A stretch of DNA of 64,000 bases from the human T2T-CHM13v2.0 reference genome, Homo sapiens. Positions 54,401 to 55,230 of the stretch are shown here, one piece after another. The DNA lies in the NCBI GenBank assembly GCA_009914755.4, contig CP086569.2:15584001-15648000 (forward strand). Reading direction: 5' to 3'. Each line of letters opens with the position of its first letter. The first letter of the stretch is position 1. The position numbers and the translations under genes were made by a program. The notes beneath the pieces are model-generated. The model was not told the origin of the DNA and made no database searches. It saw only the letters and a list, made by a program, of their open reading frames with translations.

Positions 54401-55230
54401 CAAACAACAAAAGTGAGATAAGGCAGTGATTGGGGATCCTGTTCCAATGCAGATACCAGAGATTCTCTTACTGGAATGATGAATGGTTAACAGCTATGCT
54501 GCATGTGGAAGTAAAATGCTTTCCCCCCCAAAAAAAATGGACCAATAAACACATAGCTTGGGCCTTTAAGGTCATATCAACCAATGGTTGACCCAAAGTC
54601 TGTCCAGGTGTGTTGACAGACTTCAGTCTTTCTTCCTGTGATATGAGTTCAGGTAGTAGAAACTCAGGGAAGGGCCCTTTGCTTTCTTTTTTGATGGGTC
54701 CAGACTTTAGCAGATAAGCAACATTAGAGAAAAACTTCCTCCTGTGCTTTGGGGTCACAGAGGGTTGAAAGACAAGAGGGAGTGAGAGAAGATGAGAGAC
54801 ATTGAGGCTTCTTCTTCAGTTCAACACATCAAAGCACCATATGTTGGAGCATGGATTTCTGAGTCCCAACAACTGGGTAGTGAAGACCACCCAGGGCTGT
54901 GTGTTGAGGATTCTGATGCAGACAGTCAAGGCTCACTTCTCTGAGAGGAAGCTAAATGCGACTCAGGAACACATCCCCATCTCAAATGTGTTTGTTATAT
55001 TGATGACAGTTGGCACTCAGATAGCATGCATCCCTTGTGGTTTCAACGGTTGGTTGACATGACCTTAAAGGCCAAAGCTATGTATTCATTGGTCCATTTT
55101 TTTGAGGAATGCATTTTATTTCCACAATGCAGCAAAGCTGCTAACCATTCATCATGCCAGTAAGAGAATCCCCGGGATCTGCACTGGAACAGGATCCCCA
55201 ATCACTGCTTTATCTCACTTTTGTTGTTTG
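54401..55230. repeat. Large inverted repeat (foldback). The left arm at about 54401-54593 and the right arm at about 55050-55230 are reverse complements at about 90% identity. A unique spacer of about 456 bp lies between them.
   Basis: The reverse complement of 55050-55230 is caaacaacaaaagtgagataaagcagtgattggggatcctgttccagtgcagatcccggggattctcttactggcatgatgaatggttagcagctttgctgcattgtggaaataaaatgcattcctcaaaaaaatggaccaatgaatacatagctttggcctttaaggtcatgtcaacc. It aligns along its whole length with 54401-54582, caaacaacaaaagtgagataaggcagtgattggggatcctgttccaatgcagataccagagattctcttactggaatgatgaatggttaacagctatgctgcatgtggaagtaaaatgctttcccccccaaaaaaaatggaccaataaacacatagcttgggcctttaaggtcatatcaacc. Confidence 0.85.

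What the first reader, a model, noticed from the sequence alone, without database searches (positions are those of the whole stretch)
54401..55230. Roughly 830-bp foldback with about 190-bp inverted arms at about 90% identity and a unique 456-bp spacer
The two arms are clear reverse complements of each other along their whole length. I could not match them to any common primate repeat I know. They are not Alu, L1, THE1 or MER-like termini that I recognise. The spacer is not self-complementary. The inner junctions carry a short near-palindrome, tcaaccaatggttga. A structure like this has three possible origins. It could be a non-autonomous DNA transposon with long TIRs. It could be a local inverted duplication. 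It could be a hairpin-forming element able to give a long stem-loop transcript that enters small-RNA pathways. It is also a potential cruciform or fragile site. The 96-aa and 86-aa ORFs here have no recognisable similarity.
Basis: seen in the sequence. Interest (0 to 1): 0.55.

Follow-up and report, generated by a model that had tools for sequence, protein, structure and literature searches.

The report
Old inverted duplication in neuroligin-4 intron
A real 832-bp foldback (two about 190-bp reverse-complement arms around a 451-bp unique loop) lies in an intron of a primate neuroligin-4 gene; it looks like an old one-off local copying accident rather than a jumping gene, and is probably harmless.

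Summary
The arms are 54400-54591 and 55043-55231, 171/193 identical (88.6% with gaps), with sharp ends, around a 451-bp spacer that is not self-complementary.

The window is primate DNA. It carries a neuroligin-4 exon at 45750-45906 on the + strand. The foldback therefore sits about 8.5 kb into the following intron, on the sense strand.

A mobile element is not supported. The whole unit has no target-site duplication and no hAT, Tc1/mariner or piggyBac termini. There is no third copy in the window and no protein or Rfam similarity.

Three of the four junctions carry related A/C-rich motifs. One is a 9-mer shared in inverted orientation between the left outer and right inner junctions (p about 0.008). 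This fits microhomology-mediated template switching or re-insertion of a small circle.

Arm divergence (K2P 0.097, 11 transitions and 6 transversions) looks neutral and dates the event to about 22-49 My, as a minimum.

The best reading is a single-locus local inverted duplication, now a neutral relic. It would form a long intronic RNA hairpin. With a 451-bp spacer it is a poor cruciform candidate.

Genome-wide copy number and orthologous loci could not be obtained, so a rare long-TIR element remains possible. Ordinary, with modest interest.

The parts
54400..54591 (+). Left arm of the inverted repeat (192 nt)
   Evidence: nhmmer arm profile E = 4e-68
54592..55042 (.). Unique spacer or loop (451 nt, 45.7% GC). 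It has no homologue, no strong internal repeat and no second copy in the window.
55043..55231 (-). Right arm (189 nt), the reverse complement of the left arm
54391..54403 (+). Left outer junction motif ACCCAAACC|ACAA. It contains the 7-mer ACCCAAA (repeated directly at 54591-54597) and the 9-mer AAACCACAA (the reverse complement of 55035-55043).
   Evidence: sequence; simulation (inverted match of 9 or more, p = 0.0076; direct match of 7 or more, p = 0.16)
54577..54597 (+). Inner end of the left arm. It holds the perfect 7-1-7 palindrome TCAACCAATGGTTGA (54577-54591), overlapped at its last base by the second copy of ACCCAAA (54591-54597).
   Evidence: The palindrome differs from the right arm by an adjacent TG/CC double change at 54585-54586.
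55035..55043 (+). Right inner junction motif TTGTGGTT|T, the reverse complement of the left outer 9-mer. Its TTGT (55035-55038) is a direct repeat of the last four bases of the right arm (55228-55231).
45750..45906 (+). Context: a neuroligin-4 coding exon ([52 protein letters not shown]) with a ...TTTCCAG| acceptor and a |GTAAGT donor. It places the foldback about 8.5 kb into the downstream intron, on the sense strand.
   Evidence: PF00135 hits named neuroligin; human NLGN4X chains 2wqz/3be8, 51 of 52 identical

Best explanation
The foldback is a single-locus local inverted duplication. It sits in the intron downstream of the neuroligin-4 exon at 45750-45906.

A segment of about 190-200 bp was copied once, in reverse-complement orientation, to a site 451 bp away on the same chromosome. 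The likely agent was a replication or repair error that used short A/C-rich microhomologies. This could be template switching of the kind formalised in the four-point model, at roughly ten times the usual scale. Equivalently, it could be re-insertion of a small circularised copy.

The two copies have since drifted apart neutrally to 9% substitution divergence. That puts the event roughly 22-49 million years ago, or earlier if the arms have exchanged sequence by gene conversion.

The unit is not a transposon and encodes nothing. Its only predictable activity is passive. Because it lies on the sense strand of the intron, the pre-mRNA can fold the arms into an imperfect duplex of about 190 bp closing a 451-nt loop. 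That is the same kind of substrate that inverted Alu pairs offer to ADAR.

Shown: the anatomy, the intronic sense-strand position, the lack of transposon hallmarks, the junction motifs, the neutral-looking substitution spectrum and the fold energy. Inferred: the single-copy status, the mechanism, the direction of copying (left arm derived; my confidence in that sub-claim is about 0.3) and any RNA editing.
For: 1. Both ends of the two arms coincide to the base, and similarity collapses immediately outside them. A single copying event predicts this; independent insertions do not.
2. The copies are only 451 bp apart, within range of one replication fork.
3. The 832-bp unit has no target-site duplication, and its termini (ACAAACAAC...) match no cut-and-paste superfamily.
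4. Three junctions carry related motifs. AAACCACAA spans the left outer junction, and its reverse complement spans the right inner junction. In 20,000 random draws from this window, P = 0.0076 for any such match of 9 nt or more. ACCCAAA directly flanks the left arm. TTGT directly bounds the right-hand segment 55035-55231.
5. In arm orientation the left copy reads AACC + arm, while the right locus reads arm + AACC + ACAA. This is a circular permutation, which a two-step template switch or a roughly 193-nt circle would produce.
6. Substitutions are 11 transitions to 6 transversions, only 2 touch CpG, and K2P = 0.097. This is neutral-looking, with no sign of constraint.
7. No third copy of the arm profile or the spacer exists in the 64-kb window or in 160 kb of outgroup loci.
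8. No protein homologue exists for any of the 17 ORFs across the unit, and there is no Rfam family.
9. Another local duplication lies 0.8 kb downstream: a 207-bp direct repeat at 80% identity.
10. Template switching is documented to create new inverted repeats in human and chimpanzee genomes (PMC5453318).
Against: 1. Genome-wide copy number was not measured. The only large collections available hold little primate DNA, so their silence does not exclude a low-copy repeat family.
2. No orthologous or gametologous locus covering 54.4-55.2 kb could be retrieved, so the ancestral single-copy state is not shown.
3. The unit is GC-richer (43.6%) than its surroundings (mean 37%). It falls at the 92nd-95th percentile of 832-bp windows, which would also fit a foreign insertion.
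4. The outer 47 nt of the arms carry 1 mismatch against 16 in the remaining 141 (Fisher p = 0.076). This is mildly reminiscent of conserved transposon ends.
5. The junction motifs are A/C-rich low complexity. The 7-mer alone is not significant (p = 0.16), and the breakpoints are ambiguous by 4-13 nt.
6. Documented short template switches span tens of bases, not 190.
Confidence: 0.6

Rival explanations
1. The 832-bp unit is one copy of a non-autonomous class II DNA transposon (a MITE-like element with about 190-bp terminal inverted repeats). It would have inserted in an anthropoid ancestor during the last wave of DNA-transposon activity.
For: - The long inverted termini have sharp outer ends.
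- The unit is compositionally distinct from its flanks (43.6% versus about 37% GC).
- The outermost 47 nt are the best conserved part of the arms (p = 0.076).
- The arm divergence of about 5% per arm is compatible with the age of the youngest primate DNA transposons (the age of those families is from my own knowledge).
Against: - No direct repeat of 2-10 bp flanks the unit: the left flank ends ...CCCAAACC and the right flank begins TTTGTTTT....
- The termini are not hAT (YARNG), Tc1/mariner (CAGT with TA) or piggyBac (CCC...GGG in TTAA).
- The arms contain no internal sub-repeats that could serve as binding sites.
- No other copy was found in the window, the loci or the contig collections.
- No transposase-like ORF was found.
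- The junction motif links the left outer end to the right inner end, which a whole-unit insertion does not predict.
- None of the anthropoid-age DNA transposon families I can recall has such ends (from memory, not tested).
Confidence: 0.15
2. The arms are a by-product of a 451-bp micro-inversion made by staggered breaks. A roughly 190-nt single-stranded overhang at one breakpoint was filled in on both products. This leaves inverted duplicates flanking a spacer that is itself inverted relative to the ancestor.
For: - The anatomy is the same: arm, unique segment, inverted arm, with sharp ends.
- No target-site duplication is expected, and none is seen for the unit.
- This mechanism is established for Drosophila inversion breakpoints (from my own knowledge). 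The four-point template-switch model also yields inverted repeats separated by an inverted spacer (PMC5453318).
Against: - It does not predict the 9-mer shared between the left outer and right inner junctions, or the direct repeat around the left arm.
- A 190-nt stagger is long.
Confidence: 0.1
3. The arms are two independently inserted, oppositely oriented copies of a roughly 190-bp interspersed repeat that I could not identify. In that case there is no single foldback unit.
For: - A 7-bp direct repeat (ACCCAAA) brackets the left arm like a target-site duplication.
- Inverted pairs of interspersed repeats are very common in primate DNA (PMC5398296).
Against: - Both ends of both arms coincide exactly.
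- There is no poly(A) or A-rich tail at either end of either arm.
- The right arm has no flanking direct repeat.
- The arms are not Alu, do not match the window's L1 copies and match no tRNA- or 7SL-type or other Rfam family.
- A rare family landing twice within 451 bp is improbable.
Confidence: 0.06
4. The foldback is maintained because it works as an RNA. As a long intronic hairpin in the neuroligin-4 pre-mRNA it could yield small RNAs, recruit ADAR or modulate splicing.
For: - It lies on the sense strand of an intron.
- The predicted stem is very stable.
- A published survey argues that expressed, structurally stable inverted duplicates are enriched in mammals (PMC5398296).
Against: - All 17 arm differences break or weaken pairing rather than compensate, and the ts:tv ratio is neutral.
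- There is no Rfam match.
- The flanking intron is not alignable in non-primate mammals.
- Function is not needed to explain persistence for tens of millions of years.
Confidence: 0.05

Closest known systems
Template-switch mutations that create inverted repeats (four-point model, types 1-4-3-2 / 3-2-1-4; Loytynoja and Goldman 2017, PMC5453318) and their large-scale relatives FoSTeS/MMBIR
   Same: A stretch is copied in reverse complement from a nearby template during replication. This produces a new inverted repeat with a unique spacer, has microhomology at the switch points and leaves no target-site duplication of the whole structure.
   Different: The documented short events copy tens of bases. 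Here about 190 bases were copied across 451 bp, and the junctions suggest two successive switches or a circular intermediate. The event itself is inferred, not observed against an outgroup.
Inverted Alu pairs in introns
   Same: Two roughly 200-300-bp arms about 85-90% identical, a few hundred bp apart on the sense strand of an intron, able to form long imperfect dsRNA in the pre-mRNA.
   Different: The arms here are not Alu or any repeat I could identify. Both of their ends coincide, so they come from one duplication rather than two retropositions.
MITEs and foldback-type DNA transposons with long terminal inverted repeats
   Same: Overall shape: long inverted termini around a short unique core, with no coding capacity.
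   Different: There is no target-site duplication, no superfamily terminal motif, no sub-terminal repeats and no other copies found. See the membership test.
microDNA / small eccDNA (100-400 bp, MMEJ-dependent; PMC9527254)
   Same: The inferred source segment (55039-55231, 193 nt) is in the microDNA size range and is bounded by a direct 4-nt repeat (TTGT). The left copy is a circular permutation of it.
   Different: Germline re-insertion of such a circle is not an established process as far as I know. The same junctions can be produced by two template switches without any circle.

Membership tests
Class II DNA transposon / MITE with long TIRs | Terminal inverted repeats | tested here: met
   Arms of 192 and 189 nt, 88.6% identical. 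This feature is shared with any inverted duplication, so it does not discriminate.
Class II DNA transposon / MITE with long TIRs | Target-site duplication directly flanking the whole element (TA, TTAA, 3, 8 or 9-10 bp according to superfamily) | tested here: not met
   The left flank ends ...CTTACCCAAACC and the right flank begins TTTGTTTTAATT.... The longest direct match between the J1 and J4 windows is 3 nt.
Class II DNA transposon / MITE with long TIRs | Superfamily-specific terminal bases (hAT YARNG; Tc1/mariner CAGT/CACT next to TA; piggyBac CCC...GGG in TTAA) | tested here: not met
   The element begins ACAAACAACAAAAG and ends CTTTTGTTGTTTGT. The motifs themselves are recalled from established knowledge.
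Class II DNA transposon / MITE with long TIRs | Multiple dispersed copies in the genome | tested here: inconclusive
   No copy was found in the 64-kb window, in 8 outgroup loci, or in metagenome or prokaryote-genome contigs. No primate genome or Dfam library was searchable.
Local inverted duplication by template switching / MMBIR | Reverse-complement copy of nearby sequence with abrupt ends | tested here: met
   the arms are 451 bp apart.
Local inverted duplication by template switching / MMBIR | Microhomology at the switch junctions | tested here: met
   A 9-nt inverted match between J1 and J3 (p = 0.0076), a TTGT direct repeat bounding the right-hand segment, and ACCCAAA around the left arm. 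The motifs are low complexity, so this is suggestive rather than proof.
Local inverted duplication by template switching / MMBIR | Ancestral or outgroup state with a single copy of the arm | not testable with these tools
   Colugo, camel, naked mole-rat, Myotis and unidentified vertebrate loci were fetched through the neuroligin exon. All end or stop aligning at window position about 46.7-48.2 kb.
Independently inserted interspersed repeat pair (Alu-pair type) | Each arm matches a known repeat consensus and has its own tail and target-site duplication, with unrelated truncation points | tested here: not met
   The arms are not Alu and do not match the window's L1 copies. There is no Rfam hit and no A-rich tail. 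Both ends coincide. Comparison with the full repeat library was not possible.
microRNA / hairpin-RNA gene | Match to a curated family, or evidence of processing or conservation of pairing | tested here: not met
   No Rfam hit reached gathering score. The best sub-threshold hit lies in the spacer (mir-2229, 24.5 bits against a gathering score of 65). The arm differences are not compensatory. Expression could not be tested.
Cruciform-prone / fragile palindrome | Near-identical arms with a very short spacer (tens of bp at most) | tested here: not met
   The spacer is 451 bp and identity is 88.6%. In yeast Alu-IR assays, going from 12 to 100 bp reduces IR-induced recombination about 300-fold (PMC10164571).

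The most novel reading that the evidence does not exclude
The left arm is a germline-fixed re-insertion of a microDNA-sized circle of about 193 nt. The circle would have been copied from 55039-55231 by joining the two TTGT repeats, opened at a different point, and inserted 0.45 kb upstream in inverted orientation with a 4-7-bp target duplication. This would have created a primate-specific 190-bp-stem hairpin in the neuroligin-4 (probably NLGN4Y) pre-mRNA. It would be a natural example of small circular DNA acting as a source of new inverted repeats and dsRNA structures.
Probability: 0.1. Interest if true: 0.6.

Novelty: new member of a known kind. Interest (0 to 1): 0.27.

Why it matters
If the main reading is right, this is one more neutral inverted duplicate among millions in primate genomes (PMC5398296). 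It matters in three small ways.
- It is a clean, datable example of a long (about 190 bp) templated inverted copy, with readable junctions.
- It places a potential long dsRNA structure inside an intron of a neuroligin-4 gene. It should be kept in mind when interpreting A-to-I editing, read mapping or structural-variant calls there.
- Its presence or absence in the X and Y gametologues and in other primates would give a simple rare-genomic-change marker.

It is not a new class of element and nothing suggests function.

Tried and rejected
1. Exact look-up of the 96-aa and 86-aa ORFs gave nothing on record.
2. Protein homology search with the 96-aa ORF found nothing. A 959-aa concatenate of all 17 stop-to-stop ORFs across the unit also found nothing. 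So there is no coding ancestry, and no route to other copies through called ORFs.
3. The search for related loci with translated arms in metagenome and prokaryote-genome contigs found nothing. Exact 20-22-mer scans of the same collections also found nothing. These collections hold little primate DNA, so this only argues against a very abundant family.
4. Rfam found nothing at gathering thresholds on the whole window or at permissive thresholds on the region.
5. I tried to obtain the ancestral state through the neuroligin exon. I found the exon by eye in six-frame ORFs and used it to fetch partial gene models from five sources.
   - Colugo: the locus is largely Ns beyond the match.
   - Camel: a 9-kb lineage-specific insertion uses up the flank.
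   - Naked mole-rat: the intron is not alignable.
   - Myotis: not alignable.
   - Unidentified vertebrate host contigs: only the exon aligns.
   None reaches the foldback.
6. An nhmmer hit of the spacer in Myotis (E about 1e-5 to 1e-6) was rejected. It is a GA-rich low-complexity and bat-SINE artefact with low posterior probabilities.
7. I first read the L1 fragment at 53970-54128 as sense-oriented and 3'-truncated, which would have made the foldback an insertion into L1. From my recollection of the L1 ORF2 coding sequence it is antisense and simply 5'-truncated, so it is unrelated. This orientation was not tested against a library. only shows that 53970-54128 is L1-like and that what follows is unique in the window.
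8. I could not settle whether the window is NLGN4X or NLGN4Y from the papers read.
9. I considered extending the inverted repeat inward by about 10 nt (ACCCAAAG versus AAACCACAAG). The similarity is too weak and too low in complexity to decide.

Full report
**1. The observation**

The repeat finder reports two ungapped blocks (105 nt at 92% and 61 nt at 90%). Gapped BLASTN joins them into arms at 54400-54591 and 55043-55231, with 171 of 193 columns identical and E = 3e-65.

A global alignment with 40 nt of extra flank on every side shows identity dropping to background exactly at 54400/55231 (outer ends) and 54591/55043 (inner ends). The spacer is 451 bp and has only weak short internal inverted matches.

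The right arm has TCAACGGTTGGTTGA. The two differ by an adjacent double change (TG versus CC at 54585-54586). That pattern is typical of a quasi-palindrome being perfected by a short template switch (PMC5453318).

**2. Where it lies**

The window is primate DNA. It holds about 20 Alu hits, including one 98.6% identical to an AluY-type consensus, and has CpG observed/expected 0.15 and 37% GC.

Among the six-frame ORFs I recognised a neuroligin exon. It spans 45750-45906 on the + strand, with a polypyrimidine-CAG acceptor and a GTAAGT donor. It is 51/52 identical to human NLGN4X chains in the PDB (2wqz, 3be8), which read DIHDQ where the window reads DIHEQ.

An upstream alternative exon at about 42.1 kb reads GTNIKRNADDITSNDHGEDK. 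By my recollection it differs from human NLGN4X at five positions. The window is therefore NLGN4Y or a non-human NLGN4. I lean to NLGN4Y from memory, but I could not verify this.

No further neuroligin exon is present. So 45907-64000 is intron, and the foldback sits 8.5 kb into it on the sense strand.

**3. What it is not**

- *Not a recognisable RNA gene.* Rfam finds nothing at gathering score in the whole window and nothing credible at E up to 10 in the region.
- *Not coding or transposase-derived.* The 96-aa ORF, and then all 17 stop-to-stop ORFs of 33 aa or more across 54350-55300, found no homologue among 5.8 billion protein clusters.
- *Not an Alu pair, and not related to the L1 copies in the window*.
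- *No cut-and-paste transposon hallmarks.* No direct repeat flanks the unit; the longest direct match between the two outer junction windows is 3 nt. The termini ACAAACAAC.../...GTTGTTTGT fit no superfamily motif. The arms contain no internal sub-repeats.
- *Not repeated in what I could search.* An nhmmer profile of the two arms, and the spacer as a single query, find no additional copy in the 64-kb window or in 160 kb of fetched mammalian loci. The one apparent spacer hit in Myotis is a GA-rich and SINE artefact.

**4. What the junctions say**

Written in arm orientation, the four junctions are:
- left outer: CTTACCCAAACC|ACAAAC...
- right outer: ATTAAAACAAA|ACAAAC...
- left inner: ...GGTTGA|CCCAAAGTCTG
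- right inner: ...CGTTGA|AACCACAAGGG

Three of them carry related A/C-rich motifs. The 9-mer AAACCACAA spans the left outer junction (54395-54403). Its reverse complement TTGTGGTTT spans the spacer/right-arm junction (55035-55043).

I drew four random 24-nt windows from this same sequence 20,000 times. An inverted match of 9 nt or more among the four junction pairs not already explained by the arms occurred in 0.76% of draws.

The 7-mer ACCCAAA occurs directly at 54391-54397 and 54591-54597, bracketing the left arm. On its own this is not significant (16% of draws). TTGT occurs at 55035-55038 and again as the last four bases of the right arm (55228-55231).

Put together, the left copy reads AACC + arm, whereas the right locus reads arm + AACC + ACAA. 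The left copy is thus a circular permutation of 55039-55231 (193 nt), a segment bounded by direct TTGT.

Two mechanisms give this. In the first, the nascent strand leaves the template at ...ACCCAAA and lands on TTT at 55041-55043. It copies six bases leftward, slips from one TTGT to the other, copies the whole right arm, and returns 4-7 nt behind its departure point. In the second, a circle of about 193 nt forms at the TTGT repeats and re-inserts 0.45 kb upstream with a 4-7-bp target duplication. That size is in the microDNA range of 100-400 bp, and microDNA levels depend on MMEJ (PMC9527254).

Both make the left arm the derived copy. The reverse direction needs a copy of one turn plus 8 nt and no target duplication, which seems less economical to me. 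The motifs are low complexity and the breakpoints are ambiguous by 4-13 nt. I therefore rate the direction and the circle as hypotheses, not findings.

**5. Age and selection**

The arms differ by 11 transitions, 6 transversions and two indels, both at homopolymer or short-run sites. Only two differences touch a CpG, and K2P is 0.097.

At 1.0-2.2e-9 substitutions per site per year, this gives 22-49 My. The estimate is a minimum if the arms have ever converted each other. It would be nearer the young end if the locus is Y-linked.

No difference is compensatory. Every one weakens the stem. I see no sign of constraint.

**6. What it does**

As DNA it is probably inert. Cruciform extrusion and IR-stimulated breakage fall steeply with spacer length: about 40-fold from 12 to 20 bp and about 300-fold from 12 to 100 bp. 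They also fall with divergence (PMC10164571). A 451-bp spacer with 89% arms is far outside the dangerous range, except in long single-stranded tracts.

As RNA, the sense-strand intron would fold. The MFE of 54390-55240 is -420.6 kcal/mol, against -243.7 +/- 7.6 for dinucleotide shuffles (z = -23), with the arms paired end to end.

By analogy with intronic inverted Alu pairs, such a duplex should be an ADAR substrate. This rests on established knowledge and was not tested here. Nothing suggests Dicer-type processing.

**7. What remains open**

I could not measure copy number in a primate genome or consult Dfam. The contig collections I could scan are essentially microbial. Their silence only excludes an abundant family.

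I fetched colugo, camel, naked mole-rat, Myotis and unidentified vertebrate loci through the neuroligin exon. The 10-kb flank limit, assembly gaps, a camel-specific 9-kb insertion and plain divergence stop all alignments at window position 46.7-48.2 kb.

Two observations lean mildly toward a foreign insertion. The unit's GC content of 43.6% is at the 92nd-95th percentile of same-size windows. The outer 47 nt of the arms are better conserved than the rest (p = 0.076).

I therefore put 0.6 on a one-off local inverted duplication, 0.15 on a rare long-TIR transposon, 0.1 on a staggered-break micro-inversion, 0.06 on two independent repeat insertions and 0.05 on a selected RNA hairpin.

**8. Verdict**

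This is a genuine, well-delimited, old inverted duplication in a neuroligin-4 intron. It belongs to a very common kind of structure; the human genome holds millions of inverted duplicates, although most have much shorter arms (PMC5398296). The junction anatomy is a neat mechanistic clue, but the feature is otherwise ordinary.

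Noticed in passing
window 45750-45906 (+) and about 42140-42200 (+): Two neuroligin-4 coding exons. One is the constitutive exon DIHEQ...GILG. The other is an upstream alternative-insert exon reading GTNIKRNADDITSNDHGEDK. The first differs from human NLGN4X (PDB 2wqz) at D->E, and the second differs at about five positions by my recollection. 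The window is therefore probably NLGN4Y or a non-human NLGN4. The 1.4-kb block 41578-42947 around the alternative exon is 72-75% identical in colugo and naked mole-rat and about 71% in camel; Myotis aligns only over 41748-42351 at 66-67%.
   Followed up: partly
window 45241-45528: A very young Alu (98.6% identical to an AluY-type consensus) lies about 220 bp upstream of the neuroligin exon's splice acceptor. It has the same orientation as the gene.
   Followed up: no
window 56070-56276 and 57120-57321: A 207-bp direct repeat at 79.7% identity brackets about 840 bp of LTR-like sequence, 0.8 kb downstream of the foldback. This is a second, older local duplication, or a short LTR pair, in the same intron.
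   Followed up: partly
window 57860-58221 and 59184-59547: Direct repeats of about 365 bp at 75.7% identity. The ORF at 59024-59395 overlaps the second repeat and has the typical MaLR (THE1/MST-like) peptide flavour. This is probably an old LTR-internal-LTR element.
   Followed up: no
window 54585-54586 versus 55048-55049: An adjacent double substitution (TG versus CC) turns a 5/7 quasi-palindrome into a perfect 7-1-7 palindrome in the left arm only. This is the signature expected of a short intra-palindrome template switch.
   Followed up: partly
window 53970-54128; 53683-53968; 53630-53670: Just upstream of the foldback lie an L1 ORF2 fragment, an older Alu abutting it, and a (TG)n microsatellite. 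From my recollection of the ORF2 coding sequence I read the L1 fragment as antisense and 5'-truncated. None is related to the arms.
   Followed up: yes
window 19785-20454: A long low-complexity tandem tract gives spurious 178-209-aa ORFs of the 'YLSIYLSI' type on the minus strand.
   Followed up: no
L002 (camel) 15584-24727: The camel orthologous intron carries a lineage-specific insertion of about 9 kb just downstream of the neuroligin exon. This is why the fetched flank did not reach the region of interest.
   Followed up: no
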